The notes below the pieces were generated by a model. It saw only the letters and a list, made by a program, of their open reading frames with translations, searched no databases and was not told the DNA's origin. A DNA stretch of 64,000 nt, from assembly GCA_051362555.1 (NCBI GenBank), contig CM120648.1:18782587-18846586 (forward strand). Reading direction: 5' to 3'. Below, piece by piece: positions 12,012-51,810 of the stretch. Made by a program: the position numbers and the translations under genes. Source of the DNA: Lingula anatina. Taxonomy: Eukaryota; Animalia; Brachiopoda. The stretch's first letter is position 1. Every line of letters begins with the position of its first letter.

Positions 12012-12945
12012 ATGGAAGCCATGTTAGGGCAGTCTAGACGAGGTGTAAATCCAAGATCAGGACAGGTGACAGTACAGACACAACCTCCATTAGCTGAACA
12101 GGAAACAAATACAACATCAGCTACACATCCTCGTGTTTTCTTAGAGAAGGCAGAATGTGTGCGTTCCTTCAGTCCTAAACTGGAAGATGATAGAAGAGGA
12201 ATATTCATAACTGGGTTAGCCATAGATAAGGAACACATGTTTGTTGTGGATAGATATAACAACAGAACAAAAGTATTCACACATGAAGGACAATTTAAGT
12301 TTGACATTAAAGTAAACGAACCATATGATGTGGCTGTGTCACAGACTGGTCACCTGTATATAACATCAGAGGGTGACAGTTGTGTTCAAGTGTACTCCAC
12401 CAGAGGTCAGCAGGTGACAACCATGGGTCAGGGTATACTGGACTTACCACAGGGTATTACACTGAACAGACAAGGTCATGTGATGGTTTGTGACAGTTTA
12501 AAGAAGTCCATCTTCACATTCCATGCAGACAGTGGACAGCTCCTGAACACTATTCCACTCAGTATGTGTGGATACCCATACTACATCACAGTGAACAGTG
12601 TGAATGATAACATTGTGATATCAGACATGGGGGGATACTGTGTACATGTGCTGTCACCTACTGGTGATCATCTGTACCAGTATGACGGCAGCAGAGAAGG
12701 CAGTGAACTGAGTTATCCACATGGAGTGTGCACAGACAGCTATGGTCACATCTTCATTGCTGACAGGGGTAACCACAGGATAGTGGCACTGAGTCCACAG
12801 GGACAGTTTATCAGATACATTGTCACTAAGGATGATGGGTTGAAGTTTCCCTGGGCAGTAGTCATCAACCCTGCTACTGGTCAGCTGGTGGTGGGAGAGG
12901 TGAGGGGCAATGTTAAGACATTCAAGTATACTGAACTGAAACAAG
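12012..12945 (+). CDS. Exon 1: NHL-repeat six-bladed beta-propeller (TRIM-NHL-like)
   Basis: Repeated NHL blades (PYDVAVSQTGHLYI, LDLPQGITLNRQGHVMVCD, LSYPHGVCTDSYGHIFIADRGNHRI, LKFPWAVVIN). The ORF ends over a strong phase-1 donor, AAG|gtgagt. Confidence 0.92.
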
Positions 12946-15900: not shown

Positions 15901-18095
15901 TTTTGGGACTTCATCTTCGGGAGTTTGGGGTCAATCGGTGCATTTTCACAGGAGAGGCAGCCATTAGATGCCAAAGCTGAAAACTCTCCATAAAACTGGA
16001 CCTGGAATAAGAAGTCACATACTGGCAGCCAAACTGTGACCTTGAAATTTACCTTTGACCTACTTTTCATCATAAACTAAGTCTTGCAAATTTTTTGCCT
16101 CTTAAAAAAAAACCAAAACATTTCCACCAATTTAGAGTAGGTACGAGGGAGTTTTTGTGCAGGGACGGAGCGATAAGGGGTAGTATCAGTGCAGGAAAAT
16201 ATAAGTACAGGAAGTATTGGTGTGGGAAATTTAAACTGTGACGTACCTTATACACATGTAGGTACTGGGAATTGTCGGCACGGGGGTTGTATAGGTACGG
16301 AGGAGTATTTGTGTGGGGAGTATCGATCAAGGGACGTACACGGAAAGGTACTGAGAGAATTGGTGCTGGGGCGTTTAAGGTACGCTGCAGTTTAGTAGCA
16401 GTAGCGAGAGTGTACCATTATTATGTTAAAAATTTGTCGTTGTGACAGGAAAGGTAGTTTTAATGGGTGGATTCAAATATGGTCGTAGGCACGATCTGTA
16501 CATATTTTTGTAACATACATTGAGCACTCCAATAACCTTTTCCCAGCCTATTTTGTCTTGATATTATCCTCCTCTGTGCTGCTCCTTCATTGTACCACCA
16601 GCCTAGGCGCTGGTGGTACACATGGTTTTAGTCCCGACCCGTATGTTCCACCGGCTCCGCCGGCTCCTGCGGCTCCTGCGGCTCCGCCGCCAAGTCACCG
16701 TTACCGCTTCTCCTCCTAGACTGTAAGGGCCTCCATACCCATCTCTTGGATTTAGGTCACCTATAATCTCAACTCGTTCCACGTAAAATTTGGGCTTTGT
16801 CGGTATTGGGGTCTAGGTGTGGCACTCATTGCAATGGACCCTTGTCCAAAAATGGCAAAATTAAATGCTAATTATCTCCCCTACGGAAGGAATTATGGAA
16901 AAAATTTCTACATACAGCTTTCCAAAAGTCATATGTGTAGATTTCAAATATGCCCTTGGATTTGACCTTTGACCCTTATTTCAAGGTCAAACGGGCCGAA
17001 ATTTTCAAAAAAACAAAATTTTTGCGCTCTTATTCAGACACCACACAGACTTAACTAATAATATTAATGGAAAGTGTTACTCTTTGGGTCATCTTTCATC
17101 TCTGTGAATTTGGGGTCAATCGGTGCATTTTCAAGGGAGTAGCGGCCATAATGTATCAAAACTGAAAACTGTCTCTAATTCGGGAACCGTTAATGCTAGA
17201 CACCCATTCTTTTTTTGCATTTTGTAGAGCATGTAAAGCCCAACACTGAATGTGGTCTCCGTTTTTTTTGTATTCCGTACGGTTTTCGAGTTAAGCTTTA
17301 TCAAAAAGTACATATTGGTGGTGAAAGCAAAATGTGCAGTATGGTAATGGATAATGAATTTTGAACTCCCGAAAAATAAAACATAAGGCTTGGCAAAGGA
17401 AGTCATATACTGGCAATCTAAATGTGAACTTAAAATTGACCTTTGACCTACTTTTCACCATGAACTGAACTTTGCAAATTTTGCTTCCCTTTTATCTCCA
17501 AAACTGGCAGAGATAGGTCCATAGTTACTATTGAACTTGAATAGGAAGTCATATACTGGCAATTTACTGTGACCTTAAAATTGACCTTTGACCGTCTTTT
17601 TACTATGAACTAAACTTTGCAAATTTTCTTTCTCCTTTATGTACAAAACTGACAGAGGTAGGTCCATAGTTACTATTGAACTTGAATAGGAAGTAATACA
17701 CTAGCAATCTGTGACCTTGAAATTGACCTTTGACCTACTTTTTATGATGAACTGCTTTTTGCATGTTTTCGGGCCTTTAAATCTGCAAAATTGGCAAAGA
17801 AATGCCCATGGTTGCTATTGAACTTGAATAGAAATTCATATTCTATGATATTGAAATTGACCTTTGACCTACTTTTTCACCATGAACTAAGCTTTGCATA
17901 TTTTCTTGCCTCTCATATCTTTCAAACTAGAAGAGATGTGCCCCTTGTTGCCCCTAGGTTTTCTCTTTTGTCAGCATATATGCACCATTGACAACACTTT
18001 TCAAGGAAAACCAATAGGCCTTTTTTCTAGAGAATACAGGAGTGATCAAGGGTAGGAAAATGCAAGTCAATTCGAAAATCTGCTTGATTGTATCA

Positions 18096-18133
<38 letters not shown>

Positions 18134-21100
18134 ATATTTTGAGAACTCTTATTGATTGCATCTTATAGAGCTTGTCAAGCACAAGACTGGTGATGGTGTC
18201 CCTTTTTGGAATGTGCTTCCTCCAGCTGGTGGTACAATATCCGGAGGCAGTATCGCCTCTCTGATCCTCTAGTTTACTGTTTAAATTCACTTCCTTTCTT
18301 GATTGACACTCCTTCCATCATCTTATCATCATCATTTAGACATAGCTGTTCAGTCTTGCTACTACTCACCTCCATCCTGTTACTCTCAAGCACATATGCA
18401 GGCATCCACCTCTCTAGATTTTCTCTCGCTTCCTCTCTGCTATCGCTTCACAAAAAATATAACGTCTGCAAACATCATCGTTCACCTTAGGCTTATCCAT
18501 GAGTCCTTTTGTCAATCTGAAGCATAACATTTGTATTACCAGGTGAGTTTAATGAACGGCTTCGCAGTTTGTGTGAAAGTGGTAAGATTCCAGTATACCG
18601 ACAGCGAGTAGCTATTGTTGGACCTTACGGTGTGGGAAAGACTCATCTCGCCAAGCGCCTCATCCATGAGGAATATATCAAAGAAGAAGATGCAAATACA
18701 ACTGGCGTGAATATATACCGCCATAGGTGTGTTGTCCATAAAGCTGGCCGATCCTGTTGGATCAGAGGAAAAGGTAAGCAGAATATAGGAAAACGTTTGA
18801 CACATATGGAATATGTTTATAAAGAATACAAAGAACAGAAGATAAGACATTTTCAATTTTACCGCATAATCCACAATAAGGAATTATACATACATGTACG
18901 TGTGGGTGTCGAAATGTGTCCTTCCCTATCTTAGTATGGTAGACGAGGGGCTGAGTGAAAAAGTACCTAAATAAGTGGTGCCTTTGTATTGTTATCAATC
19001 AGTTGACATACATGACACTTTACAATCTACTCCTACGTCCATTAATTATTTTTTAACTGGGTACAAACACGATAATTTCATTCTTTGTAAAAACACCATG
19101 CTTTATTTGACTCAATATTGAATTGAATTTTTCAGCGGTGTAGCCTGATACGTACACTCAGAAAGGGTACATTTAGATACAATGCTTGATCTACCTGTAT
19201 GATCCTTCCAACTATTTTCAGATGATCCAAAAGACCAGTTTGCACAAAACATGGCAATTGGAGTACAGAATTTAGATACGTTTTGCGAGCCGGACTTAAC
19301 AGTATTGGACCAAATGCCACTACAGGAATCCCTACCACATTCGGAAGAGAATATTAATAATATGCTGACAAATAGAGGTATTGTACATGATTGTCTCGAA
19401 TAGTTCATAGTTGGTGCAATTTAAACAGATATTTGTAGTTATTCTTCTTTTTTGCCAAGAGATTCCACCTTCTGTGTGTTTTTCGTTGGCCATTCTTCCT
19501 TGAAGACTGCATCCCAAATTTTATTTTATATGTTTAAATTTTGTAAAGAAATTCCTTTCTGAATTCTTTTATCCTAGCCATGTTTTTGTTTACTTCAAGG
19601 TTGAGTCATTTTCTGCTAGAATGGTGTTTGATATTATTCTTCTCTTTATTCTACAGCCGCTCCCCCTGATGACAGTGAATCACCTGCCTCTCCTGACAGA
19701 GCAGCAGGTAAGTAGTTCACATGTAGTAAAACAAGATTCTTGTGTATTGCTCAGAATGTTCGGGAGTTTTTCTTAGCTTGCCAATTAGGTATGTCAGGGT
19801 CTACATTCTTATTTTCATCAAACTGGGACTTAGAACTGAAACGGACATGAAGCCCAGTGGTAATCAAATTTTCTTAATGTCCATGTTTTTACTAGAAGAT
19901 GATTAAAATTTTGTGGTATTTTTACAGTTGACCATTATTGCATCAAAAACCTACTTTGTGCACTATCACCATAACGTTATAAAATGAAAACTGTTACCTA
20001 TTTTTTTATTTACAAAAAATGGTTCTTAGGATTGACAAACAGCTTAAATTAGAAAACCAGCTCTTTTGAATTATTGTTTTTATCAAATTATGCATTTTTT
20101 GTGAAATTTTTATTTATCTCATTCTGGTGTGAGCTTGAACTCTCATGGGCCTGAAGCCTTATGCTTACATCGTTATATACTGTTGTGCATAATTAAATTT
20201 TGGGGTTGACTGTGCAGTTAAGCATTGTATTACATTAGAACTGACAGCCTCCTATTTTGTGCATTATTATTTTCTGCTTTTTTAAAATTGTGACTTAGAT
20301 ATTTCATGGGCCTGAATACTGTTGCTAGTCACATTTGGGTGACAAGCCTCTAATCTTCCATTGGGTAACTACTAGCTAAATTCAGAGCTATAAGTTCACT
20401 TGCCTAAATTAAGTTTCAAGTGGCAATAAAATGAGATCATATAAAACACACATGTTGAGATTCCCTGTAGACTCCCATAGGTTAAGTTCTCTGCCAGATA
20501 ACAGTGTCCATAATAGGGAAGCAGTGATAATTATGCAGATAAATGTTGTTTAATTTTGCAAATTAGTTTTCAAAAAATTATTTTGTATAATGCCAACATT
20601 AATGCTAGTTTTAAAAGCAGCTTTACTGAAATGTTTTGTTTTTAATTTCTTTCAAACACTGAGGGTTTCAACTCAATTTTTAACTCCCCTCCACCTGAAG
20701 CTCTGCACATTTTCTGTTTTCCCACAAAAGCAGTTGTATTGGTATTTATGTATTTCAGCATTATGTAACATTATATTATTCTATGCACTGCTTTCATATG
20801 TCAAATATTGTGATTTTCATTACTAGTATGTGAATTTGAACTTTCGTGGTCCTGAAACTGTAATCTTATCATAGGGGCAGATTGGGATCGTCCTCAAGGT
20901 TTTCAGGAAGACGGTCAGATTTTAAAGTTAACATTGACGGGTATCTATTTTTTTTGTTGGAAGACCATCTAAAATGGAGGGTGGATTAACAAAGATATTT
21001 TAAAATACTGTCAGAAAATACATTTGGATCCGCTCCTGTTATTGACCATGTTACCTGTTGTGCATGACTTAAATTCAGTGTCGATTGACCGTGCTATTAC

Positions 21101-23462
21101 AAGTATTATTTATTATTGCATCAAAATGAGAAAATAACCTATTTTTTGCATCTTTATTTATTTATTTATTTATTTATTTATTTTGTCTGTAGACTTGTCC
21201 TTCAAGAAATACATGCCTTCAAGAAATCGACGAAAACTGGAAGTGCATGTTTTTTGCACTGTTTTTCCTGTCATGCCCATCGTAAACACTGTGTTGTCAA
21301 GTAAAAGGAAGCATCTGATACAAAGTATCAAACGCGGCATTGACGTGCTTGCTTGCGATGTGTTCAGTACACTTTGTTTACACTGACAATTCGAGGTCAG
21401 AAATGCACAATGTTTTTCTATGTAATTACGCAGTTTCAATTTTGATTAGTGAATTTTCTTTTATCTGCATGGTCATTTTCCGAACATTTGTATAAGCTAC
21501 GAAATATTTCTCATCGGAAAATCACCCAGCAGCTTTCCAAGTACAAGCGAGTGACGTCATGACGCACTTCCGGTTTTCGTCAAGATCTTGAAGGGATTAG
21601 CGTTATGGTTTGCTGCACATTTAAAGCGTTCTGTCTCTAAATGTACTTGACTGCTTGGATTGAAATTTACAGAACTTATTCCTCACATGATATCACACAT
21701 ATGTGCTTAATTTGAGAGCTTTAGCTGTTATATATTTTCTACAGTGCCCATTCAAAATTGAAAAAGAGCTATTTTCCGTCAATTTTTCTTGAAGGGCAGG
21801 TCTACATTTGACAGATTTGCTGTCTTGTTTTATCTGGGTACAAACACGACAATTTAATTTTCTGTAAAATAAGTCTTCTTTATATGACTGAGGATTATTT
21901 TTCTTTTTGCCAAGGGATTCCACCTTCTATGTGTTTTTTGTTGGCCATTATACCTTATGTGCCTTGAAGACTGGGCACTTGATACCAATTATACTTGATC
22001 TTATTAGACGCATTTTCGATGTAATTTATTTATTTTTATACAATATTTATAGACCAATATCCCAAAGTTATATGTTAAAATTTTGTAAAGAAATTCCTTT
22101 ATCTTAGCCACATTTTTGTTTACTTTAAGATTGAGTCATTTTCTGCTAGAATGGTGTTTGATATTCTTCTTCTCTTTATTCTACAGCCGCTCCACCTGCC
22201 TCTCCTGACAGAGCAGCAGGTAAGTAGTGCACATGTAGTAAAACAAGATTCCGTCTTTTGCTCATAATCTGCGAGAGTTGTTCTTAGCTTGTCGATTAAG
22301 TATGTGAGTTCCTGCATTCTTATTTTCATCAAACTGTATTAATAATGTTATATTAAAATTGACTATACCTTACAATTTTAATTGATTTTAATGAATGTTA
22401 AAACATTCAGTATTTATCACCCAGTTATGTTTTGAGCTTACTCACTTGTATTCAACAGAGAGGATACATTTTTAAGAAAAAAATGTTTTTTTTTTGGAAA
22501 TTGCCGATAAACCTTCAGAAACAGATGAAAGCTTCTAATTTATTTGATAACTGTTTCACAAAGTTAATTGACACTAAATACATTCAAATTTTGTCAATGA
22601 TTACAATACTTTTTTATGCTAAAAAGTTTTATTTTAACCGCACTGTTTATTGTACAGTCCTTTCCAAAGGTGAAAGTGGATCTCATACCTCTGGGGAAGA
22701 AAACATGAGTAGTATAAGAATGTTGACGATATGTCGATGTATGAACAGTCCCTGACAAATGAAATAAATTAGATTGAAAGCATGTCTATAAAGATTAAGG
22801 TCTAGTCTCTCTCTCTCTCTCTCTCTCTCAAACCCCCCCCCTTGAAGAAGGCACATCAGTTGAAAACTCAATTGGGCGCTTGATACCAAATATACTTATT
22901 ACGTGCATTTTCAGTCTAATTTATTTATTTTTATACAATATTTATACAATATACTGCGGGATTAATACGATGATTTAGATGAATATGCATGCATTGTAAT
23001 ACATAACAATATGCATTATGCTAAAATCAGTTAGTTTGGACATAGCTTATTGTATTCCTTGCAGTGGCAGAAAGGGACCATCTAGATGATATTGACAAGG
23101 AGCTATTGGAAAAAATTGAGAAAATTGCTCGAGGAGAACATGTGGAGCCAGAGAAACAGGTCACAATTTGGGATTTTGCAGGACAGGATGTCTACTACAC
23201 CACGCACCAAACATTCCTCTCAGAGCGGATCATCTACTTGTTGGTATTCCGACTTGACCAGGACCTCGATGATAAAATCCGTGTATACAGGGGAGAGAAG
23301 ACGCTGAAAGGTATTGTTGAGCTTTATGTATATATCTTTTTAGTATTAGTTTTTAGTAGTGATAATTTTAAATGGTTCCGATGAGTGTTTTAGATTTTAA
23401 TATTGTAGTAATTTTAAGGATTTTAGTTATATTATCCATTGTAAGCCGCCCAATAAGAAACA

Positions 23463-23513
<51 letters not shown>

Positions 23514-26500
23514 TAATTGGTGCTATTTTTTAGCAATGCTGAGGAGAAAACACTGATTAATATTCATCTTTGCAATAACCTCAAGGCTTTATATGTATTT
23601 TTCAGAGTTTATTATGTTTTGGTTAAACTCAATCCATATGCACACTATTGGAAAATTGAGGGAAGAAGACAAAAATGCCATGCCATACGTCTTGATTATT
23701 GGAACTCATAAGGACATGTTATGCCCACAGGTGAAAACACTTTTCTTATCACAATTATTCAATTACTACCATACTTATTCTATGTATAATTTCTATCCCT
23801 TCAACCATATCACATTGTGATTCCTGATGAGTGATTTAATTATTGTACCACCAGCGTTAGCGCTGGCGGTACACATGGTTTTGGTCCCGTCCAGATCGTT
23901 CTGCCGGCTCCGCCGGACGGCTACCGTTACCGCTTCTCCTCCTAGACCGTAAGGGCCCCCGTACCCATCTCTTGGATTTAGGTCACCTATAATCTCAACT
24001 CGTTCCACGTAAAATTTGGGCTTTGTCGGTATTGGGGTCTGGGTGTGGCACTCATTGCAATGCACGCTTGTCCAAAAATGGCAAAATTAAATGCTAATTA
24101 TCTACCCTACGGAAGGGGTTATGGGAAAAATTTCTACAGACGGCTTTCCAAAAGTCATATGTGTAGATTTCAAATATGCCCTTGGATTTGACCTTTGACC
24201 TTTATTTCAAGGTCAAACGGGCCAAAATTTTCAAAAAAATAAAAATTTTTACGAAAAAAATTTTTTTTGCTCTGTTATTCAGACACCACACAGACTTAAC
24301 CAATTATATTATTGGAAAGTGTTACCCTTCAGGTCATCTTTCATCTCCGTGAATTTGGGATCAATCGGTGCATTTTCACGGGAGTAGCGGCCATAAGATG
24401 CCGAAACTGAAAACTGTCTCTAATTCGGGAACCGTTAATGCTAGAGACCCATTCTTTTTTGCATTTTGTAGATCATGTAAAGCCCAACACTGAAAGTGGT
24501 CTCCGTTTTTTTTTTATTCCAAACGGTTTTCCAGTTACGGTATCAAAAAGTACATATTAGTGGTGAAAGCAAAATGTGCAGTAGGGTATAGTCAGGTGGC
24601 TAAGTCCAAATTTTATCCAGAATTGTGAGAAAGATGATAAAAGCATGAAACTTTCCACGATGAATGACCATTGGGTGTTCATCTTTTTTGGATCGGGGGG
24701 GTTGACAAACACATAATGGTCATTCATCGTGGAAAAAATTTCATGCTTTTATCATCTTTTGCACAATTCTGGATAAAATTTGGACTTAGCCGCCTGACTA
24801 CTTTTCACCATGAACTAAACTTTGCATATTTTGCTTCCCTTTTATCTCCAAAACTGGCAGAGATAGGTCCATAGTTACTATTGAAGTTGAATGGGAAGTC
24901 ATATACTGGCAGTCTAAATGTGACCTTGAAATTGACCTTTGACCTACTTTTCACCATGAACTAACCTTTGCAAATTTTGCTTCCCTTTTATCTCCAAAAC
25001 TGGCAGAGATAGGTCCATAGTTACTATTGAACTTGAATAGGAAGTCATATACTGGCAATCCAAATGTGACCTTGAAATTGACCTTTGACCTACTTTTCAC
25101 CATGAACTGAACTTTGCAAATTTTGCTGCCCTTTTATCTCCAAATCTGGCAGAGATAGGTCCATAGTTACTATTGAACTTGAATAGGAAGTAAAACACTG
25201 GCAATCAAAATGTGACCTTGAAATTGACCTTTGACCTACTTTTCACCATGAACTGAACTTTGCAAATTTTGCTGCCCTTTTATCTCCAAAACTGGCAGAG
25301 ATAGGTCCATAGTTACTATTGAACTTGAATAGGAAGTCATATACTGGCAATCCAAATGTGACCTTGAAATTGACCTTTGACCTACTTTTCACCATGAACT
25401 GAACTTTGCAAATTTTGCTGCCCTTTTATCTCCAAATCTGGCAGAGATAAGTCCATAGTTACTATTGAACTTGAATAGGAAGTCATACACTGGCAATCTA
25501 AATGTGACCTTGAAATTGACCTTTGACCTACTTTTCACCATGAACTGAACTTTGCAAATTTTGCTGCCCTTTTATCTCCAAATCTGGCAGAGATAGGTCC
25601 ATAGTTACTATTGAACTTGAATAGGAAGTCATACACAGGCAATCCAAATGTGACCTTGAAATTGACCTTTGACCTACTTTTCACCATGAACTGAACTTTG
25701 CAAATTTTGCTGCCCTTTTATCTCCAAATCTGGCAGAGATAGGTCCATAGTTACTATTGAACTTGAATAGGAAGTCATACACTGGCAATCTAAATGTGAC
25801 CTTGAAATTGACCTTTGACCTACTTTTCACCATGAACTGAAATTTGCAAATCTTGCTGCCCTTTTATCTCCAAAACTGGCAGAGATAGGTCCATAGTTAC
25901 TATTGAACTTGAATAGGAAGTCATACACTGGCAATCTAAATGTGACCTTGAAATTGACCTTTGACCTACTTTCCACCATGAACTGAACTTTGCAAATTTT
26001 GCTTCCCTTTTATCTCCAAAACTGGCAGAGATAGGTCCATAGTTACTATTGAACTTGAATAGGAAGTCATATACTGGCAGTCCAAATGTGACCTTGAAAT
26101 TGACCTTTGACCTACTTTTCACCATGAACTGAACTTTGCAAATTTTGCTGCCCTTTTATCTCCAAATCTGGCAGAGATAAGTCCATAGTTACTATTGAAC
26201 TTGAATAGGAAGTCATACACTGGCAATCTAAATGTGACCTTGAAATTGACCTTTGACCTACTTTTCACCATGAACTGAACTTTGCAAATTTTGCTGCCCT
26301 TTTAACTCCTAACCTGGCAGAGATAGGTCCATAGTTACCATTGAACTTGAATAGGAAGTCATATACTGGCAATCTTACTGTGAAATTGACCTTTGACCTA
26401 CCTTTTGATGAATTTAACTTTGATTGTACCATTTTAAGTTATATATATTTTTTTTGCATATTTTGAAAATTCTTGTTGATTGCGTTTTTACAGCTTGTCA

Positions 26501-29500
26501 AGCAAAAGACTGGTGGCTGTGTCCCTTATTTTGTGTATGTGGGGGTCTATATGAATGTGCTTGCTCCAGCCGGTGGTACAATATTCGGAGGCGGTATCGC
26601 CTCTCTGATCCTCTAGTTTAGAAACTTTTCACTATGTGACTATTTGTGGATGGCATGATTAAATGTTGGGGGAAAAGGGTGTTCCTTGCCCCCTGTACTC
26701 CATCCTAATTTTATAGGTTGACCGTTCATTGCAACATACCCCATTTCTCAACTTGAACAAAGTGGACTATATCATATACACACATACACATACACACACC
26801 CCAGTAATTGTTTTCTTTCACACTGACAATTTAACATTATTATATGGTAATGAAGAACAGCTACAAAAATGTCTTAACTAGTTTTTATTCACAGGGCGAC
26901 GTTGAAAAGATTTTTGATAAACTCAAGAAGTGTCTCGACGACAGGCAGGTACTCAAGGACCACGTCTACCGATATTTTGCCATAAGCAACTTGGCCGAAG
27001 ATGATGGGGAGTTCGCTGAAATAAAAAAAGCGATCGAAGATTTGTGCGGTTATAGCAGCAACAGTATTGCTACCGTTCAACATCTTTCAGTGAATTGGAT
27101 TAAATTGGAAATGAATTTGGCAGAGAAGAGTGAAGAAACCCCCATCATATCTATTGAAAAACTGAGGGAAATGGCAAAAAGGGTAGGACTCCCCGATGAA
27201 GAATTACAAGAAAAATTCATTCCTTACCATCACCGTCAAGGCGACATCCTACACTTCAAAGTTGATGGACTGGAAAATGTCGTCATAATAGATCCACTTT
27301 GGTTAGCAGTTGTGTTTTCTGCCATCATGACCAATGCCAGCAGTCAACCTGGAGGCAGTCACTTTGATCTCCTGAAAGACGATCTGAAAAGAGGAGTGCT
27401 CAATGAGGAGGTATTTGATGAATATCTAAAACAAATCAAAATGGCCGAAAAAAAGACTGAAATCATTCAACTTATGCTGCATTTCGACTTGATGTTAGAA
27501 ATATCCCAAGCAGTTGAAAACCCTCTGCCTGGGTCTGGAAAGAGAAGATTCGTCGTGCCCAGTATGCTGGTATCCAATATCAGTGTAAATAACGCCTTGT
27601 CTGAGACGGATCCACAGAAATATTTGCTTATCGCATTCCCTCACATTCTGTTTCCTATCGGGTTGTTTCATCGTCTGATAATCCGTCTTCTTAGGAAGTA
27701 TAGAGCTCAGGAATATAAACATAACATTCCAGTTGTTGGGTTTGACTATGCCTCCTTCCGTTTGGGAGACGAACAATCGGTGCTCCATCTCGCCATTGAA
27801 GAAAGGGCCATGAGAATGATGATAACAAATGCTACTGGAAACAAACCAAAACCTGACATATACTCCAACGCACGGGAAACTGTTGAAAAAGAACTGTCAA
27901 CTCTTAAGGACACGTACTGTCCCAGTATGCAGTTAGGCTTTCGCATTCGGTTAAATGACAAAGGAAAAGATATTCCAATAAAAGCAGAAGACGTCCAAGA
28001 AAACGATGAGATATGTAGATCTGTAGAGGGCACTGAAATGCCAATTGATGTGACACCGTATCGTGTTTGGTTTTCAGGTAAGCATTAAAATTTTAGGTAG
28101 TTTTACTGTGAACAGACATTATGTTCCTGAATATAATTAGGGGTAATGTAGTCATTGAAATCGGTGATACTTAAACTGATGTAAATGCAACTAATCATAT
28201 TGGGTGATGTACTATGATGTACATGAAGAGAATTAATATTTCAAATTGTTGCCAATAAACCAAACTTCATATATTTTAAAATAATGTAACTTGATAAATA
28301 CCCAAAGGTATTTTTTATAATCCCCGAAAATGATATCTTTACAGATCTTATCAGCATTTTTCCCCTTGGCAAATTTTTGCCCATCGCCTTTGTTAGAACA
28401 GTATAAATATCGCCCACAAAGTCATGCAATTTATATTTTAATCATTCCAACAAAACAAGTTTTACATGGGCATCAACGTCTGTGTGAGGGTAAGACTGTT
28501 GCAGTTCTATGTGCCGAACATTTTTATGTACAGAAACAGATGTGTCTGTACACATAGCCGTCACCTGCGTCTGTCGTCGCAGTTGCCGTAGGCTGTCACC
28601 ATTGTCGCCGTTGCCGTGCACTCAGCAATAACACGATAAGTGGAATACCATTTTACATTTTGTATTCAAATTTGCATATATGTAGCACTGATAACACAAT
28701 ATAAGAAAAACAGATGGGCAAATTGCCATTATACTCACAGGACTGGTCAACCTTTCTAAAACGTAGGACGAGTTCGAAAATCAGCATAATCGGGCCATTA
28801 TTTTTTAAGTTATGCTGTTTTTTCACATTTCTTCAGATTCAATTCTTAGGCATGTTAACAGTCTCATTATTTAACTAATAAGATACCTAAAAGTGTTTGT
28901 TTGACATTTCCTGCATCTTTACAACATTGTTAGTTGATTATGTAAAAATGATGGTAAACTTGTTATCATGTATTGTATAATAAAGTGTCAAAAATGGAAA
29001 TAAACTCATATAATTGCAGTTTGTAAGATTCAATCATTCACTATGTTCAGAAACTCAGAATGGAGGAAATTGGACATAAAACACTGTTCTATTGATATTT
29101 TTCACATCTCATCAATTTTCTAAGTTGATCATATGAAAATGGCAGTAAACTGTTAATTTTGTTATATGTTAAAAAATTGTCTACATTTTGGCATTTTCAA
29201 GGTGTGACTTTGAAGTTCCATGGGCCTGAAGACCTTTGCTAGTCACATTTTCTGAATATCCGTGATACTAATATTTTATTATTAAAGATTGATGGTTATT
29301 ATCCTGTTAAACATGTCAGTGAGAGATAAAACCAAAATTAACAATCATTTCGGAACGACACTTGGATTTTGCAAGGAAAAGTACGGCGTAGGATAGGACA
29401 TAAAGTATTTTGATGGGGCCCTAGAGGCCAAGTGCCAATATATAATATATATTAGGCCAATCTTACCATTTTAGCAGCCCCAGAGAATCAAGACCGTCGT

Positions 29501-32500
29501 GCAGCCAAGTGTCCTGAAAACGAGGCAAGTTATGAGCTTTTAAATACGTTTGTGTCTAAGTACTGTGCAGCAAACACAGAACGTTATTATAACGTTACCA
29601 TATCATATGTCCAAAAACATTTTGGTAACATTATAGGAACATTCTGTGTTTGCTGACCATTATCCTCACTTGCACAAGTTTTAGTAAGACCATGAAATTA
29701 AATATACTTGTATATACACAATCATAAGAAAAATTGGATACACTTAGGCATAAATGCGCACTTTTCACTCTGTTACACTTGCTATACGACCTCCGATATT
29801 TCTAATGATAAATTTCACATAAAGACAGTGTATGTGTGCGTTTCAGTACAAGAACGATTCCGAACCGAGAGGTCGTGCACTCATTATCAACAACAAGACA
29901 TTTTCCGTGGACTGGCTTCCAGAACGTGATGGTACCGAGGTAGATGTTGTTGCCTTGAGGAAACTATTCCATTACCTCCATTATGAGACAGACGTTATCA
30001 GTAACCTGACTGCAAATGTGAGTTCATTAATAAGATCATGGTGTGTTTGTAATAAAACGAACATCGTAAAAGCCAAATGGCTTTTAGGTTTCAAAGAAAG
30101 ACTAACATACTTTTTGGTGATATCTAAATATATTTATCAGTGACACAAAGATGATACAATTGATACTTGAACCTTTTGGTTCAAAACAGGTGTTGTCAAA
30201 CAAACTTTTCGGTCACATTTTATTATGTTTATCTATTTCACTGCAATATATTTTTCTACCAAAATGAAGCTTTTCACTCGTTTCTGTTCATTGCATGTAT
30301 TTGTATTTATTTGAGAGACATATGGTACACTGTATAGTTATACAACATTGGTCAAAAAGGTTGTCCCACCCCTATTTCCATGTACTTTTATTTACAGGTG
30401 ATCACCTTACAACTATAAATTGTTAGAAATAGATCACTGAATTGGAGTGTGCAATGCAAAGGAGAACTAACCCCATAAAAACCTGGGCCAAATCCCCCAT
30501 CTTGTTTAAGAAGAATCGGACAATATTCCACAAAGCAGAATTGTAACCCGTGTTGAAGGCTTGTCGCGCCGTCTACAGGAGATAATTGCAGTACGCGGTA
30601 GACGCACACGCTGTTAGGCACGTGACCTTTAACAAGCATACACTAATGCTAATTGTGTGTGAATTTGGTGACATTTGATGGCGTCTTTTCAATTTTATAG
30701 ACATTTCTTTACATCTGTAGAAGTCACAGAGAAACAGTCGATTTGAGGGGGTTCCTCTTATAAATTTTACTAAATGGTATAAAATATGTATATTTTCACC
30801 ACTATTTTGTATTTTTTAAACCATTAATCACGTTAGACACGGTATCCGTAATAAAAAGCACTATTTCTAACAATTTATAGCTGTAAGGTGATCATCTGTA
30901 AATAAAAGTACATGGAAATAGGGGTGGGACAACCTTTTTGACCAATGTTGTATACAGACAGACATGGCGCACAATCTACAAATATACCACCATATGTCCG
31001 TCCTCGGTGGCTACTGCCTTTCACATTCTCTGTTAGCGTCAAGTATGAATTGATGCTGCCATTTTGCTTTACGCTGTCGTTGATAACCCAATTCCGTATG
31101 TACCACGTCTCTGCAGTCATTGCATGCTATTTCATTTGAAGTACACTATGTTTTTATGTCACTACTTCTTTTATTTTAATGTGTAAAGGAAATGAAGGAA
31201 GAAATAGAACAAGAAAGTCAAAGAAACGATCACAAGATCTACGATTCTTTCATCTTGTTTCTACTGAGCCATGGTACCGAGGGTGCTGTTTATGGAACGG
31301 ATGGCTATCCTTTACCCTTCAAATATATCAAAGCCATTTTGAATAACAGGAAATGTCTTGGCCTGTCGGGCAAACCGAAAATGATATTTATTCAGGCTTG
31401 CCAGGGAAGTAAGTTATGGAATGTATTACACAAGCTTGAATACCTGTGATGAAAATAACATGCAAAATTATTAAACAAATGTATTGGGATATTAAACTGT
31501 ATTAAGTTTGTCTCCTTTAAATTATATTCAGCCACACGAAACGAATGACGCTTAGTATTATGTAATTGTTTAATTAGTTAATACTGATATCAATTCTAAC
31601 TTATATGTAAACATGTAATCCACATAAGGGTGTATGGGGTATTTCATTTTTTTTCCATATTCACCCAGAGATATTGGACAGTGGGTCACTCCTGGACGGA
31701 CAAACAGTTCAACAACCACAGCAAGCACCACCTGCAGCAAACCTTGGCGATGAGGTACCCGATGCTCCACACGAGATTCCAAAGCCATCCAATGATCCGA
31801 CTATGTCTGATTTTCTCGAGGTCCATGCGACTTCACCAGGTACTTTAACCGTGTTTCTTTGTATGCCATTTTACTTAGGCCTTACAAATGTGTTTTTCGT
31901 CAGAAAAAAAAAAATCAAAATGATAAGGTGCACGTGGTGATGCTGGGATTATGGCATTTTGCCTCAGGTAGAAGATGGTGTGCATTTTGTGGTCTTTCGA
32001 CATATTGTGGAGAACTGTATTGTACGCACTACATTACTGCACCAGTAAATACTGAAAATGGTGCATGTATTTTTATACAGTATCAAATAAAATATATGTG
32101 CCAAATTTAATTAAAATGTACGTACATTTTTACCATAATGCTTTTAAAAATGCGTTCACGATCACTAAGAAAAAGGAAAGTGTGTCGAGACGTTACCTTA
32201 TTGTATTTGGGAAGCTGTCAGACAATTTCTTTTGATAAAATAGACTTTGTAGCTTATGCAAATGTTGAGAAAAAAACATGCCGATTATGGAAAATTCATA
32301 TATCAAAATTTAAACTATGTATTTCGACAGATTTTAATTTAATTTAATTTAAGAATCGCGATCGTGTATTTCTGACATTGAATTCTCAGTGTGCACAAAG
32401 TGTAAGCATCGAAGGCATTCATGAATGTGGACATGTTTGATTCTTTGAATCAGACGCTTCATGTTACTTGATAGCGCAGAGGCACGCCAGGGAAAACAGA

Positions 32501-33533
32501 GGGAGAAAAACAAGTTCTGGTTTTTCTTGATTGAAGGCTTTGATTTGTTGAAGGGCAATTCTGTATAGCCTGGTTTCCAAAGATCGTGTCGCAGGCATAT
32601 CAGCAAAACAAAATGCATCGCCAAGGACCCGAATGCCATGGCAAAATGTTTTAAGTTTACTTTGTTATTTTGATACAAATAAGCTTCTGGTTGACATAGA
32701 TTTGACTGGTCCTCAACTTTCCATGCTGCACTGTGCCTGACCGAAAAAAAAAAAAACCCTTAAAATGAGTAGTGATTCAGTGTTCCAATCATGCCTGCGA
32801 CAGCTAGAAATGTGACCCATATTATTTGCCTTTTGGAGATCATTTCAGGTCGGTTCACTGTAACACTATCGGCAAATAAACTTTACTAATAGTTCCTCGA
32901 TCTACGCGATTTATGAAATTTGCTTTTCCGCACTCTCAGTGACACTAAGTACTGTTATATTAACAAAATAAAAATAAACAGTACCGTTGCATCTACGAGT
33001 AAATAATTCGTTAAGGCTTCAGTATTTTCTGTTTCAGATTACGTATCTTGGCGACACACGGGAAAGGGAACATGGTTTGTTCAATCCATTGTCGATACAT
33101 TTTATCGTGAAGCACACAAATATGACGTTTTACAAATGCTGGTGAATGTAAGTACTGAAATAACCTGAACTACATTATTTTACATTGAAAGTGTGTTAAA
33201 TTCATTAGAACACCAATCAAATATAAAACATAGCTACCAGAAGAAGTGACATGTCGTAAGAGGTGACTTATGTAAATACAGTCCAACATGCACAGCCTTT
33301 TTAAGAAGCAGTGAAATGCTTTTCTGTATATTTTGACTGTTTAATCAGAACTGTTCACTTCATGTAATATTTTATTTCACCAGGTCAATCACGCGATCTC
33401 TCAAAAGCAAACAACAATGGGCAATAAACAGGCACCAGAGATAGTTACCAGCTTACGCAAGAAAGTTTTCTTCAACATAACTCCAGGTAAGCAAAAAGAA
33501 TCACATCTTCCCGAGGTGTATTCGGCCGAATAA
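12012..33533 (+). CDS. Multi-exon gene: NHL beta-propeller - ROC GTPase - COR - caspase fusion (~1276 aa)
   Basis: Exons 12012-12945, 18543-18773, 19222-19377, 19657-19707, 22187-22219, 23065-23310, 23606-23730, 26895-28077, 29475-29524, 29847-30017, 31189-31408, 31669-31839, 33038-33147, 33384-33533. All junctions are phase-compatible, total 3831 nt, no internal stops. Confidence 0.78.
14304..14592. repeat. Tandem duplication, ~143 bp x2
   Basis: tacgagtaattttttactttcagaagtc...tagtaccaccagcgta occurs twice in succession. Confidence 0.85.
16586..18274 (+). mobile_element. Helentron/HINE-like non-autonomous rolling-circle element, copy A
   Basis: Subterminal inverted motif ttgtaccacc...ggtggtacaa, 5' hairpin and ccggctcc microrepeats, 3' hairpin gaggcagtatcgcctc, ends ctagt before T; 3-4 diverged internal satellite units. 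Partial copies at ~14570-14830 and ~15790-16100. Confidence 0.75.
18543..18773 (+). CDS. Exon 2: ROC GTPase N-part (G1 P-loop, G2)
   Basis: ttaccag acceptor (phase 1); RVAIVGPYGVGKTHLAKRL...ANTTGVNI; donor AAG|gtaagc. Confidence 0.88.
19222..19377 (+). CDS. Exon 3: insertion within ROC
   Basis: ttttcag acceptor; DDPKDQFAQNMAIGVQNL...LTNR; phase 1-1, 156 nt, open. Confidence 0.65.
19657..19707 (+). CDS. Exon 4: low-complexity micro-exon within ROC insert
   Basis: Polypyrimidine tract + ctacag; AAPPDDSESPASPDRAA; CAG|gtaagt; phase 1-1. Confidence 0.7.
22187..22219 (+). CDS. Exon 5: duplicated micro-exon (paralog of exon 4)
   Basis: AAPPASPDRAA with splice sites identical to exon 4 and an 18-nt in-frame deletion; flanking intron is also duplicated. 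Confidence 0.6.
23065..23310 (+). CDS. Exon 6: ROC G3 motif
   Basis: [31 protein letters not shown], the canonical ROC WDFAGQxxYxxTHxxFL; phase 1-1. Confidence 0.93.
23606..23730 (+). CDS. Exon 7: ROC G4 motif
   Basis: EFIMFWLNSIH...PYVLIIGTHKD; phase 1-0. Confidence 0.9.
24589..24800. mobile_element. Foldback MITE with TAG...CTA termini (Academ-like), nested in the HINE
   Basis: tagtcaggtggctaagtccaaattttatccagaattgtg / cacaattctggataaaatttggacttagccgcctgacta. Shares aaaagcatgaaacttt with the 229-2022 TIR; absent from HINE copy A. Confidence 0.8.
24801..26400. repeat. Satellite array, 146-bp unit x ~11
   Basis: cttttcaccatgaact...gaaattgacctttgaccta recurs at 24801, 24947, 25093 and so on. 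Confidence 0.95.
26895..28077 (+). CDS. Exon 8: ROC G5 + COR domain
   Basis: FAISN (G5), WIKLE, YHHRQGDILHF, VIIDPLWL, FVVPSML and FPIGLFHRLIIRLL are COR-type motifs; phase 0-1; donor CAG|gtaagc. Confidence 0.9.
29475..29524 (+). CDS. Exon 9: COR-caspase linker micro-exon with GC donor
   Basis: ttttagcag NAGNAG acceptor; AAPENQDRRAAKCPENE; donor GAG|gcaagt. It converts phase 1 to phase 0, exactly as needed. Confidence 0.62.
29847..30017 (+). CDS. Exon 10: caspase large subunit start
   Basis: YKNDSEPRGRALIINNKTF...ERDGTEVDVVALRKLF...NLTA; S1 Arg in RxGT; donor gtgagt. Confidence 0.93.
30343..30950. mobile_element. Tc1/mariner-type MITE in a caspase intron
   Basis: Near-perfect ~85-bp TIRs caacattggtcaaaaaggttgtcccaccc...; TA on both sides. 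Confidence 0.88.
31189..31408 (+). CDS. Exon 11: caspase catalytic His/Cys
   Basis: DSFILFLLSHG...VYGTDG...LSGKPKMIFIQACQG; donor gtaagt. Confidence 0.96.
31669..31839 (+). CDS. Exon 12: caspase intersubunit linker and start of small subunit
   Basis: KILDSGSLLDG...DEVPDA...PTMSDFLEVHATSP; phase 1-1. Confidence 0.85.
33038..33147 (+). CDS. Exon 13: caspase small subunit
   Basis: DYVSWRHTGKGTWFVQSIVDTFYREAHKYDVLQMLVN, with SWR and GxWF motifs. Too short for the ORF track; read manually. Confidence 0.93.
33384..33533 (+). CDS. Exon 14: caspase C-terminus
   Basis: VNHAISQK...KQAPEIVTSLRKKVFF, then NITPGKQKESHLPEVYSAE*. An internal CAG|gtaagc at 33486 could splice further. Confidence 0.88.
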   Translation, partial: VNHAISQKQTTMGNKQAPEIVTSLRKKVFFNITPGKQKESHLPEVYSAE

Positions 33534-44121: not shown

Positions 44122-45586
44122 CACATACTGGACAATAGAAGTGTCACCCCCTAAATCAGAGCAAGGAGTTATCTCTTATAACTCCTTGATCAGAGTAATA
44201 AAAGTAGGCAGATCTTCGGTACTTATAATGTCTGGTCTACTTATAATGTGACTAATGAGTATAAAACCGCTATACCATGGAGTTGTGTTGTTGGTCTTCA
44301 ACTTGTACATGTACAGCAAATATTATTCCTGTCTTCCTCCAATATGGCAAGATACAGGCAATTACATAACGGTTATATGCCTCAAGTTTTAAACCTGAAG
44401 AGACGGAATATAGGCAATGTCAGAATATCGATACAATTGAATTGTTCAGTCAGAACCGTGCAGAGGGTCTGGTCTCGGTATGGAAACACTGGATCAAGAG
44501 ACAAATTGCCTCTGATGGGTCGTCCAAGAAAAACTACTGGCCATGAAGACCGACGACTGATTTTGATGTCCAGGTTGTCAAAGTTCGACACTGCTTGTCA
44601 GTTGACAAGACAGTGGAACAATTTTACACATAAGAATGTGTCTGTGAAAATTACTAGGCGTCGGTTAAATGCTCAGAGAGTGTATAACAGGGTAGCAAGA
44701 CAAAAAAAACTCATATATCGTTACAAAACAGGCAAGGTAGAGTGAACTAGGGTCAACAGGATCTGGAACTGGACAGTCCATGGCAATTGGTCCTATATAT
44801 TTTTTTCTGGTGGGTGTCGCTTTGGTCTGACCTCTGATGACAGATGGGTACGATACTAGCGAACTGCTGGTAAAGCATTTGAAGCACATGCACTGAATTT
44901 TCGAACCCGGAGCAGCATATTTATCATGGTGTGGGGCTGCATCAGCATCCATTGCGTGGGCGAATTGGTAGTGGTTGATGGAAACATGAATCACTAGAAA
45001 TATATCGATGTTTTGGAGTCAGGCTTGCTACCATCTATTACTAACATGTTTGGTGACAGGAGTTATCCATTTGTTCACCAGGATGACAATGCTCCTTGTC
45101 ACAGGCCCAGAGCAGTTGATGATTGGTTTGAACAACAGGACATTCGCAGGTGATGTGGCCTGCCCAGAGACCGGATGCAAGACCGGATGCAAACATACCT
45201 GTAATAGAAAATGTGTGTAATGATATGTCAAAACTTTTGACAAATGTCCGTCTAACCAGTAGAGAATAATAGTTATATTATATAGAAAATAGTTATATTC
45301 AGTGTTTCACGCTTGGGCCAGCATAATCCCTGAACTCATCAGACAATTATATGAAACCTTGCCTAGTAGGCTGGCACCTATTATTAGGTCACTTGGCTAT
45401 GCCACAAGGTACTGGACCTGAAAGTGCATATTTTGGTAGAATGTATACTTGGTTCTCATTTTGTGTTTTTTTTTTTGTGAAATTTGATGTTAATAAAATG
45501 ATACCAGGAGCATAATATTCCACAGTCATTTATCTCCCCCATAGTATTGGTGCTGTAGGGGAGACACTGCTATTGTTCAGTGTGTG
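44122..45586 (+). mobile_element. Full-length but decayed Tc1 transposon
   Basis: TA TSD; TIR cacatactggacaatagaagtgtcacccc. Transposase remnants from ATG 44344: GRPRKTT, MVWGCI, GNMN, HQDDNAPCH, WPAQ.PD, IEN; frameshifts and stops. Confidence 0.92.
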
Positions 45587-46775: not shown

Positions 46776-47586
46776 TGGCGGCTAGTTTTGTTGTTATAAG
46801 AGAAAAATGCCAGGAAAATGCTAAAAGAAAGTGTGTGAGACATATAGATCCTATGGTAGAGTTCCAACCCCATATTTTTCATAAGAGATACTGCATGACA
46901 CAGGAGAATGTGCTCAAACTGACCAATATTATTGAGGAACCTCTGAAAAGACCAACTACGAGGTCTTGAGCACTGTCACCCACTACCTAAGTTCTTGCTG
47001 CTTTACGTGTACTTGATACTGGGTCAGATCACAAGGTGGTCGGCGACAGCCTTGATCTGTCACCAATGTCGGTGTCCAGAAGCCTCCATGCTGTGGTAGA
47101 TTCAATTTTAAACAGCCATGACCCAGCACTGCAGATCCAGTTTCCAACTGAAGAGGCAGATGTTAGGAGAGTGAAGAAGCAATTTTACAATATTGCAGGC
47201 TTCCCTAATGTCATCGGTGCCATCGATGGTTCTCTAATTCCAATAAAAGCTCCATCCCAAGATGAGAATTTGTTTGTGTGTCGTAAAGGCTTCCACGCTC
47301 TTAATATTCAAACAATAGTGGATGCCAAATTGAAGTAAGTTAATTAACATTTTAAAGGCATTCAGATATTAGAAAAACCTTTAGATCTACCCTTTGGCTG
47401 TTTCATGTTTGTTTCTATTAACTTGTTAATTTCATTACATTATATAGGTAGTGTAATATACTGCATTATTATCCAATGTTATTTTATTACCACTTATCAA
47501 ACTTATATCTTGAATTATTATTCATTTTAAATACCTCAGAGAAAATTAAATTTCAATGTACATTAGCTTAAAAATATTATTTATCT

Positions 47587-49029: not shown

Positions 49030-51810
49030 TCACAGTATTCTGTTATTTTTTCAAATAACACTTAGTTACTTTTGTCAATTTCTAATCTCTCCCTTTCTAG
49101 TTGTAAACGCTCTTTTTCTACTTTCAACCTCTCCTCCTCTAATGCTAAGCGATCCTTCTCTACGTTGTAAAGCCTTTCACTTACATCTGAAATTTGAAGA
49201 TGTATGTAATTAATAATTAAATATAAAAATGATATAATAAGAACTCAATCTTTTCAATATTCTAAATTTTACAGATACTGTACTTTTAAATCAATGTGAT
49301 AATTTTTCATAAATGAACATATTCCTGTTGAGTTGCAACAACAAAAATGAAAAGCCGACCATCTGACAATGATGAACGCTTTCATAAGCTATATGTTTGA
49401 AATTACCAATAAAGTTTCATTTGTTAATAGGTATAGAAATAATTAACTCATATGTTTCAACCAATAATAGACTGAAAAGTACACCTGACTGCCCATAGAT
49501 GGTAATGCCTATCACAGCCCTCATTTCCCTGATGAAGTCTGGCTGTAAGCAAACACTATATACATAGGTATAAACTCCCCGAACAAATGATTTAAAAGCA
49601 TTACTTATTCAAACACAAATGTAAATATTAATGTTTATATACCTTGTGATGATGTATGCACCTTCTTCTTTCTATTGGATGAACCGGTTGCTGAAATCGG
49701 CATTTACATGTTAAAATTAGCTGATATAAATAATAATAATGAAAATGCACTTTGATCAAGTGATTATGTAATGTCCTAAATTCATGTGTTAAAATGGGTG
49801 ATGTAATTATAAATTAAAATATGCAAGTAATCAGAAGCAGTGAACATTGATTGGAAAACATAAAATAAATACATATATTTTAATAAAGTCTAAAATTAAA
49901 TATAATAAATACCTCTTCTTTTAAATGGTACATGGCAGGAATGTTCATAGCTAACAAAGAAAATAGCAATACTATATATGAACATATGATGATTACCTTT
50001 CCCTGATGTTAACAAATAATATATCTGTATAAGGATGGGTCCCACTCTGCAGTGACTCTTGTAAAGTGTAATCTGCATAACTGAATGACATGCCTCCTCC
50101 AGCGGCTACAGGGTACTGAACTTGCATGCGTGCTCAGATTAATTACCTCCTAGGTGTTGAAGAAGGCAAGTCACACAGTAAAGGTATAAGGATCTCACAC
50201 AGAGTTGTACCAACCCAACTTAATGTAATAGGCTGTGTTTCCCTGTATGGGGATCTAGGAGATTGCATTCTTTTAATTTTAATTTCAATGTTTCTCTCAA
50301 TATGATAATTTATATTGTTTATATTGTTCATAATGTTCAAAAAGGGCAATAGAAAAGACATCAAGAATTACAGACCCATCTGCCTACTTTCTAACTTGTA
50401 CAAGATTTACACCAAAATATTGACTGAAAGGCTAACAAGACAACTAGATGAAGCACAGCCAAAGGAACAAGCAGCTTTCAGAGGCCAGTACACCACTACC
50501 GATCATATGCACACTGTCAACCAGCTCAAAGAGAAATGTCTCGAGTATAACATTCCACTATGTGTAGCATTCGTTGATTATGAAAAAGCCTTCGACTCAG
50601 TAGAAACCCAGTATATATTGGCATCCCTGCAAGATCTAGGGATCGAAGATGGATACATAGACGTCCTCAGAGACATATACACCGATAGCTCTGTAACAGT
50701 CAAACTGCACAAGACCACCAATAAGATCAGGATCAAGAAAGGTGTACGCCAAGGAGATACAATCTCTCCTAAACTGTTCACAGCAGCATTGGAACGTATA
50801 TTCAGGGATCTAGACTGGCAGGACAAGGGCATAAACATAGATGGTACCAAGCTCAATCACCTTAGGTTTGCAGACGACATCATAATTGTAGCAGATGATG
50901 CAAAAGACCTCGAAGAAATGCTGCAGGCGTTAGCAGATGAAAGCATAAAAAGTGGGCTAAAGATGAACACCAGCAAGACAAAGGTGATGTTTGGACCACT
51001 AACCACCCCTTGCACAGTGAAGGTCAATACCAAAGAAATAGAAGCAGTAGAAGAGTATATATACCTTGGGCAACGGTTCAGCCTTAGGGATCGAACACTG
51101 TCACAGAGTCAGTCTAAGTTAATTACTCTACTTAATATCATCTTGATGTTCTTAAAGCAATTAAATATAAAACGAAGTTAGCCATTGTGCAATTTAATAT
51201 ACAAATTCATTTTTTTGAAATAAATAACAAAATAACACCTTCTTCCACTCTGACAGTGGACTGGGCCCCACACCACCACCTGTCTGCCGCATTGCTGCAC
51301 GGCGTTTGGCCTCTTTGCGTTTAGTGCGAGACGTGAGGTCATGCCATTTTTTCCTGACCTCTCGGAAACTCCTCTTTATATGTGAAACACTGTTAACTCT
51401 AAAAGGAAAGCATTCATAATTTTAATAAAAAAATATATAAGAATCACCACTTTATTGCTTCATCATACTGTGCATGACCATGTCAAGATGTGTTAATAGA
51501 GAGCAATTACAATTACTTTTATTGAATAACTACAACAACATACCAAACTAAATCATCAATAAGCAATAATTAAATATAATGGATATAATTTTAACATGGC
51601 AAAACAGACTTCGATTAATAGAAAAGGATTGTTAATCATAATTATTCAACTTACTTTTCGGCAACTTCAGCCCATTGTTTTTCTTTGGACTTTAGAGTCA
51701 CGGTGTTGGTGAAGGGGCTAAATAGTGTAGGTCTACACGAGACCTCCTCCACCAACACCGCGAGCTCATCGGTTTTATAACGCTCCCTGCTGTGTTTCTC
51801 GATTTCACGT
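49030..51810 (-). pseudogene. Harbinger Myb/SANT-like DNA-binding accessory gene (spliced)
   Basis: Exon ~51810-51655 SRERYKTDELAVLVEEV...LFSPFTNTVTLKSKEKQWAEVAEK; exon ~51398-51238 VNSVS..KRSFREVRKKWHDL...RQTGGG; coiled-coil exon ~49187-49040 VEKDRLALEEERLKVEKERLQLERERLEI. Confidence 0.82.
50318..51095 (+). mobile_element. RTE-clade LINE reverse transcriptase fragment
   Basis: KKGNRKDIKNYRPICLLS, EQAAFR, FVDYEKAFDSV, GVRQGDTISP, LRFADD, YIYLG; open frame but no endonuclease domain or 3' tail. Confidence 0.92.

What the first reader, a model, noticed from the sequence alone, without database searches (positions are those of the whole stretch)
28077..29847. COR-caspase fusion depends on a 50-nt GC-AG micro-exon
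Seen: the COR exon ends in phase 1 and the caspase exon starts in phase 0. The bridging exon I found (29475-29524) has a NAGNAG acceptor and a non-canonical but consensus-strong GAG|gcaagt donor. Inference: skipping it frameshifts away the caspase, and intron read-through stops after FSGKH. Both give a caspase-less NHL-ROC-COR that could act as a dominant-negative dimer partner. Gene predictors that ignore GC donors would split the gene, which could explain why the fusion is overlooked.
Basis: partly seen in the sequence, partly recalled or inferred. Interest (0 to 1): 0.7.

Follow-up and report, generated by a model that had tools for sequence, protein, structure and literature searches.

The report
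Real GC-AG exon, shuffled Roco-caspase gene
RNA reads show that a 50-base exon with a rare GC splice donor routinely joins a LRRK2-type GTPase switch to a caspase, with no skipped form seen, so the exon itself is ordinary; the more interesting point is that this likely brachiopod gene appears to be pieced together from sensor, switch and effector modules swapped among related genes, likely for immune cell death.

Summary
The exon is real. In three RNA runs, 86 reads join 29524 to 29847 across a GC-AG intron, and it is the only joint listed. No skipping and no use of the second NAGNAG acceptor was listed. Intron read-through is about 1-2%. The proposed caspase-less dominant-negative isoform is therefore not supported in these samples. 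The fusion is not overlooked by annotation either: 3 of 4 Lingula RefSeq models with this caspase exon already carry the exon's peptide. What stands out is mosaicism. The reads join this exon to two different COR ends, this gene's (34 reads) and one not in the window (44 reads). The window's COR is 90-98% identical to a HEPN-bearing paralog, its caspase 95-99% to paralogs whose COR ends are only 55-57% alike, and its NHL exon 86% to a Roco whose COR is 25% alike. In the gene model, phase-1 introns flank the Roc-COR core. Best reading: a constitutive phase-adapter exon of a caspase cassette in a recombining Roco family. Function is untested.

The parts
12012..12945 (+). Predicted exon 1: NHL beta-propeller, ends in a phase-1 donor (AAG|GTGAGT); likely sensor module
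   Evidence: Pfam NHL E 1e-22; 86% identical over 311 aa to RefSeq NHL-Roc-COR P0023, same start and same end. The junction to Roc was not tested with reads.
18543..23730 (+). Predicted exons 2-6 (18543-18773, 19222-19377, 19657-19707, 23065-23310, 23606-23730): Roc GTPase with G1, G3 and G4 motifs
26895..28077 (+). Exon 7: end of Roc, COR-A and COR-B; phase-1 donor
   Evidence: Pfam COR-A E 1e-21; model pLDDT 87, best fold matches C. tepidum Roc-COR 3DPU/3DPT, E 2e-14; depth about 42 in X4
28078..29474 (+). Intron 7 (phase 1), the inferred swap point between COR and effector; holds a high-copy repeat at about 28515-29316
   Evidence: Window COR resembles the HEPN-type paralog up to its last residues, then switches; repeat reads
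29475..29524 (+). Exon 8: 50-nt linker exon, phase 1 to phase 0, GC donor
   Evidence: Depth 44/23/57 in X4/X5/X6; loose ends to two COR-end types, 34 and 44 reads
29525..29846 (+). GC-AG intron, 322 nt
   Evidence: 86 junction reads, only joint listed; intronic depth 0-6 outside a short repeat at about 29568-29606
29847..33533 (+). Exons 9-13 (29847-30017, 31189-31408, 31669-31839, 33038-33147, 33384-stop 33533): caspase with SHG and QACQG catalytic motifs
   Evidence: Pfam Peptidase_C14; open frame; motifs; exon 9-10 junction in 25+17+48 loose-end reads; exons 10-13 covered in X4

Best explanation
The 50-nt exon is spliced in through a GC-AG intron in the three runs that express the gene, and is likely a constitutive linker exon that converts the phase-1 end of COR to the phase-0 start of the caspase, likely travelling with the caspase as one cassette when related Roco genes recombine. 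Shown: inclusion, the GC-AG boundaries, use of the first acceptor, and joining of the same exon to two different COR ends. Inferred: U1 accepts the GC donor because 7 of 9 positions match the consensus, which is no weaker than most GT donors of this gene. Also inferred: unequal crossing-over or gene conversion among paralogs, with breaks in the phase-1 introns around Roc-COR and once inside COR, produced NHL-Roc-COR-caspase here and Roc-COR-HEPN or other combinations elsewhere. Predicted function (about 45%): the NHL propeller senses a ligand, Roc-COR cycles between monomer and dimer with nucleotide, and the dimer brings two initiator-type caspases together to start immune cell death.
For: 86 junction reads, no skip or second-acceptor reads listed. 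GC-intron depth is like that of the neighbouring GT intron. Donor matches. The exon's peptide is 100% identical in P0007, P0008 and P0014, and absent from HEPN-type and older caspase-type paralogs. COR trees put the window with HEPN-bearing P0015 (96/96, and 100/100 on the longer segment). AU tests reject one clade of the exon-plus-caspase bearers (p 8e-5, 8e-7, 2e-5), while their caspases cluster (93/93). P0008 and P0014 show a breakpoint inside COR (permutation p 0.0006 and 0.0002); the window shows none there (p 0.56). NHL 86% against COR 25% with P0023. Variable C-terminal effectors on bacterial Roc-COR: PMC8195603 section 15. Nucleotide-driven monomer-dimer cycle: PMC5714945 abstract.
Against: Only 3 of 7 runs laid expressed the gene, all from one study, with about 6% of each read. 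The 86 reads mix both gene types, so they cannot all be assigned to this locus. HEPN-type and NHL joins rest on RefSeq models, not on my reads. The RefSeq models may include uncollapsed haplotypes. The AU groups were named after I saw the identities. [quoted passage not shown] No functional data.
Confidence: 0.78

Rival explanations
1. The weak GC donor is a regulated switch: in some tissue or on infection the exon is skipped or intron 7 is read through, giving a caspase-less Roc-COR that blocks its partner.
For: Frame logic holds. An AATAAA lies at 28254, 170 nt after the read-through stop. GC-AG introns are enriched for alternative events in mammals.
Against: 0 skip reads listed against 86 inclusion reads. 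Intron-7 depth is 0.5 against 26-44, and X1 and X2 show 0.9-1.5 there with almost no COR depth, so it is likely repeat spill-over. The skip product has a stop 592 nt before the last junction.
Confidence: 0.08
2. The two COR ends joined to the exon are two deeply diverged alleles (haplotypes) of one locus, not two genes; the mosaic is then allelic recombination.
For: Both forms occur near 1:1 in all three runs (0.42, 0.54, 0.41).
Against: The two ends are only 55-57% identical in protein over 94 residues. RefSeq holds them on different contigs. All three runs carry both, and X4 shows several caspase-exon variants at 14-33%, suggesting more than two copies or pooled animals.
Confidence: 0.1
3. 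One locus splices its COR exon to alternative effector exons (caspase here, HEPN further downstream), or several COR genes splice to one shared caspase cassette.
For: COR-end depth in X4 (about 48 over the exonic part of the bin) exceeds what this exon's own-type reads explain (about 19). Caspase and Roco-HEPN genes are neighbours on one RefSeq contig (P0018, P0001).
Against: tblastn found no HEPN exon and no second COR exon in the 64-kb window. Near-identical HEPN-type paralogs exist and explain the surplus.
Confidence: 0.06

Closest known systems
GC-AG introns of the major spliceosome
   Same: GC donor with otherwise strong consensus, AG acceptor, efficient removal; about 0.8% of junctions in a mouse data set (PMC13149111 passages)
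   Different: Nothing unusual; no alternative use was seen here.
Bacterial AP-GTPase (Roc)-COR counter-invader proteins (Kaur et al. 2021, PMC8195603; section 15 and supplement search)
   Same: N-terminal repeat module, Roc-COR, and a variable C-terminal effector that includes caspase; several paralogs with different effectors
   Different: Those have LRRs and the COR+CASPASE rows shown were bacterial CHAT-type; this is an intron-rich animal gene with an NHL propeller and a caspase closest to animal caspase-3/9/8 structures, with swaps at exon borders.
Roco family: LRRK2, DAPK1, C. tepidum Roco (PMC6337361 passages)
   Same: Roc-COR tandem by Pfam and by fold
   Different: No LRR, kinase or death domain; fits none of the three topology groups of that review.
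Brown algal ROCO genes (PMC11378527 abstract and passages) and Trichoplax and Aplysia Rocos (PMC4104024, PMC9334734 passages)
   Same: Expanded, candidate immune Rocos with shuffled parts; some algal ones end in a peptidase
   Different: Algae shuffle single LRR exons; here whole sensor and effector modules appear to be exchanged. No C-terminal caspase was mentioned in the passages read.
Lophotrochozoan RLR domain grafting, including Lingula RLRs with caspase domains (PMC8998645 passages)
   Same: Caspase domains grafted onto an immune receptor in the same genus, linked to exon-intron changes
   Different: Helicase receptor with N-terminal grafts, not a Roco.

Membership tests
GC-AG (U2-type) intron | Spliced boundaries read GC...AG | tested here: met
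   Joint fits 29524->29847; no C>T listed at 29526 in about 4-5 unspliced X6 reads, which is weak
GC-AG (U2-type) intron | Strong match to the U1 consensus at other donor positions | tested here: met
   7 of 9; the gene's 11 GT donors score 5-9
Regulated cassette exon | Skipped form present in RNA | tested here: not met
   0 listed against 86 inclusion reads in 3 runs; other conditions untested
NAGNAG alternative acceptor | Both AGs used | tested here: not met
   Loose ends fit only 29475; listing threshold 3 reads per run
Roco proteins | Roc followed by COR in one chain | tested here: met
   Pfam Roc and COR-A, G1/G3/G4 motifs, fold match to 3DPU; exons 2-7 joined by model and by RefSeq paralogs, not by listed joints
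Roco proteins | GTP hydrolysis and nucleotide-dependent dimer cycle | not testable with these tools
   Needs biochemistry
Caspases (peptidase C14A) | His-Cys dyad and Asp-pocket arginines | tested here: met
   SHG, QACQG, RDGTEVD and SWR present; paralog P0014 matches caspase-3/9/8 structures at E about 1e-35 to 1e-39
Caspases (peptidase C14A) | Proteolytic activity on dimerisation | not testable with these tools
   Needs an assay
AP-GTPase-COR counter-invader systems | N-terminal LRRs | tested here: not met
   NHL instead; works-like claim only
AP-GTPase-COR counter-invader systems | Paralogs with different C-terminal effectors | tested here: met
   Caspase, HEPN_DZIP3, Death or none among Lingula paralogs

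The most novel reading that the evidence does not exclude
Lingula carries a recombining Roco immune family in which sensor (NHL, HEPN, others), GTPase switch and effector (caspase with its 50-nt adapter exon, or HEPN_DZIP3) are exchanged as cassettes at phase-1 introns, so that nearly identical switches fire either a protease or a putative RNase: an NLR-like combinatorial repertoire built on a LRRK2-type GTPase, in which paralog heterodimers rather than splice isoforms would tune caspase activation.
Probability: 0.4. Interest if true: 0.68.

Novelty: new variant of a known kind. Interest (0 to 1): 0.42.

Why it matters
The splice site is ordinary, and showing that removes the proposed dominant-negative switch. 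The gene matters more. A caspase wired directly to Roc-COR would give a simple protease read-out for the open question of how the Roco monomer-dimer cycle controls an output domain. Paralogs with 90-98% identical COR but different effectors are natural swap experiments. If the cassette exchange holds in a phased genome, it is a clear animal case of recent sensor-switch-effector shuffling outside the NLR, TLR and RLR families.

Tried and rejected
No whole genome was held, so paralog loci and their donors could not be read as DNA. No RNA holder was listed by the run index; raw-read runs of the same species label were laid instead. The first lay was swamped by intronic repeats, so its joint and loose-end tables did not show the splice junctions. 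GT-donor bridging exons: none plausible. The nearby GT at 29529 would give a 54-nt exon out of frame, and no such joint was listed. A second COR exon or a HEPN exon in the window: not found. Complex prediction of two COR-exon chains gave no answer, score 0.00, no evidence either way. The protein atlas did not answer. My first exon model had wrong coordinates and was corrected. Literature: searches listed no paper describing an animal Roc-COR-caspase or NHL-Roc-COR-caspase; I judged most hits from listings and abstracts only. Gerdol et al. 2018 on Lingula immunity (PMID 29278680) is not held and may describe these genes. In PMC8195603 I saw only the first two supplement hits per term and file, and file 13 was not searched. 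Earlier-findings look-ups were blank.
Full report
Observation. The COR exon ends at 28077 in phase 1, the short exon is 29475-29524, and the caspase exon starts at 29847 in phase 0. Among 140 frame-compatible single exons in the interval, the four best share the GC donor at 29524. 7 of 2000 shuffles did as well, and no GT candidate of 20 nt or more came close (the scoring matrix is recalled and approximate). Pfam finds NHL, Roc, COR-A and Peptidase_C14 in order on the + strand. A 13-exon model gives one open frame of 1265 residues with 11 GT-AG introns and this one GC-AG intron.

RNA test. No genome was held. Nine raw-read runs with the same species label were offered and seven were laid. Three (X4, X5, X6; one study; about 6% of each read) cover the gene. 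On 29360-30140 the only joint listed is the GC-AG intron, with 35, 20 and 31 reads. Depth is 44/23/57 on the short exon, 45-70/20-30/45-70 on the caspase exon, and 0-6 in the GC intron outside a short repeat, similar to the end of intron 7. The only loose ends at the caspase start are tails of the short exon (4 and 3 reads), so no skipped form was listed. That bounds skipping at about 3% if truly zero, or about 7% (95% bound 12.5%) if two reads per run hide under the threshold. The loose ends upstream fit the first acceptor only. In X4, depth just inside intron 7 is 0.5 against 26-44 in the COR exon; X1 and X2 show as much there without expressing the gene, so it is probably spill-over from a repeat. 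Limits: one study, unknown tissue, and NMD could hide a skipped mRNA.

Annotation. All close relatives are Lingula anatina RefSeq proteins, so the window is likely Lingula. Of four models with this first caspase exon, three (P0007, P0008, P0014) contain the exon's 17 residues unchanged after a COR end; P0009 does not. P0002, P0006 and P0053 are further single-chain Roc-COR-caspases with different linkers, and Owenia P0022 is Bcl-2-Roc-COR-caspase. So the fusion is in databases. Among 144 distant COR hits, 2 had a C-terminal caspase, 1 a C-terminal HEPN and 1 an N-terminal NHL by my local search; 15 of them scanned with Pfam also showed Death, DED, TIR, GT4 and OTU tails.

Mosaic. The reads join the short exon to two COR ends: this gene's (11+7+16 = 34 reads) and a DLRPYRVWFS type (15+6+23 = 44 reads) that is not in the window and matches P0008 and P0014. 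Those two paralogs are 95-100% identical to the window in the exon and most of the caspase (92% in P0008's last block), but 55-57% over the last 94 COR residues. P0015, which ends in HEPN_DZIP3, is 90-98% identical across the whole COR exon, and P0010 and P0012 are 98-100% at its end. Trees of COR place the window with P0015. AU tests reject one clade of exon-plus-caspase bearers (p 8e-5 and 8e-7 without, 2e-5 with the mixture model), whereas the caspases cluster. Nine or ten rows were used; short or distant models (P0006, P0007, P0009, P0011-P0013, P0016-P0019) were left out of the COR trees, and groups were named after seeing identities. An informative-site scan finds a break inside COR in P0008 and P0014 but none in the window, which puts the window's break in intron 7. 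At the other end, the NHL exon is 86% identical to that of P0023, whose COR is 25% identical, and P0005 has HEPN at that position. In the model, introns 1 and 7 are both phase 1. The direction of the exchanges is not determined. The caspase side is shown by reads. The HEPN and NHL sides rest on RefSeq models and on the unverified exon 1-2 junction, and RefSeq may hold uncollapsed haplotypes.

Mechanism. Splicing: a consensus-strong GC donor (7 of 9) used constitutively; shown for three runs. Evolution: the exon is likely the caspase cassette's adapter from phase 1 to phase 0, moved with it by recombination between paralogs; inferred. Protein: the COR exon folds as Roc-COR (pLDDT 87; best match C. 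tepidum Roco, E 2e-14), and GTPase and caspase catalytic motifs are intact. Bacterial Roco is dimeric with GDP or no nucleotide and monomeric with GTP (PMC5714945, abstract). Initiator caspases are activated by induced proximity (recalled), and the linker has EVPD/A, like the caspase-9 self-cleavage site (recalled). A sensor-gated dimer switch for cell death is therefore my preferred function, at about 45%, untested. If a caspase-less partner exists, near-identical HEPN-type paralogs are likelier candidates than splice forms.

Comparison. GC-AG is the commonest non-GT class, about 0.8% in a mouse set (PMC13149111, passages), and is linked to alternative splicing on average (PMC7242645, passages), but not here. 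Roc-COR with variable effectors including caspase is described for bacteria (PMC8195603, section 15). Shuffled immune Rocos are described in brown algae, Trichoplax and Aplysia (abstract and passages). Caspase grafting on Lingula RLRs is cited in PMC8998645 (passages). Searches listed no description of this animal architecture, but the main Lingula immunity paper was not available and supplements were seen only in part.

Verdict. Observation confirmed; exon ordinary and constitutive as far as tested; regulatory and annotation claims not supported. The gene is a new variant of a known kind, and its interest lies in recent module exchange. Interest 0.42.

Noticed in passing
window 29469-29475 (RNA loose ends): More than half of the upstream-joined reads (44 of 78) come from a different COR end that is not in the window.
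   Followed up: yes
window 12012-12945: The NHL exon is 86% identical to that of a Lingula Roco whose COR is only 25% identical, suggesting recent transfer of the sensor module.
   Followed up: partly
window 24798-26383 and 17397-17905: Related intronic elements with 146-bp (10.9 copies) and 145-bp (3.6 copies) tandem arrays; the first is covered hundreds-fold by RNA reads, strand-biased in three runs, likely from other copies.
   Followed up: no
window 28515-29316: High-copy repeat inside the inferred swap intron; could seed recombination between paralogs (untested).
   Followed up: no
P0022 (Owenia fusiformis): Single protein with Bcl-2, Roc, COR and caspase domains: an apoptosis regulator and a caspase on one Roco.
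   Followed up: no
P0018, P0001, P0019 (one RefSeq contig): A partial caspase gene lies next to a Roc-COR-HEPN gene, and an older model fused them; fits tandem arrays of these paralogs.
   Followed up: partly
window 29847-30017: Many variants at about 14-45% frequency in the caspase exon per run, so more than two gene copies or pooled animals contribute.
   Followed up: no
window 44182-44745, 46991-47338, 50309-51181: Transposon remnants: weak Tc3-type HTH hit; the other two ORFs look like a Harbinger-type nuclease and a LINE reverse transcriptase by eye (recalled, not scanned).
   Followed up: no
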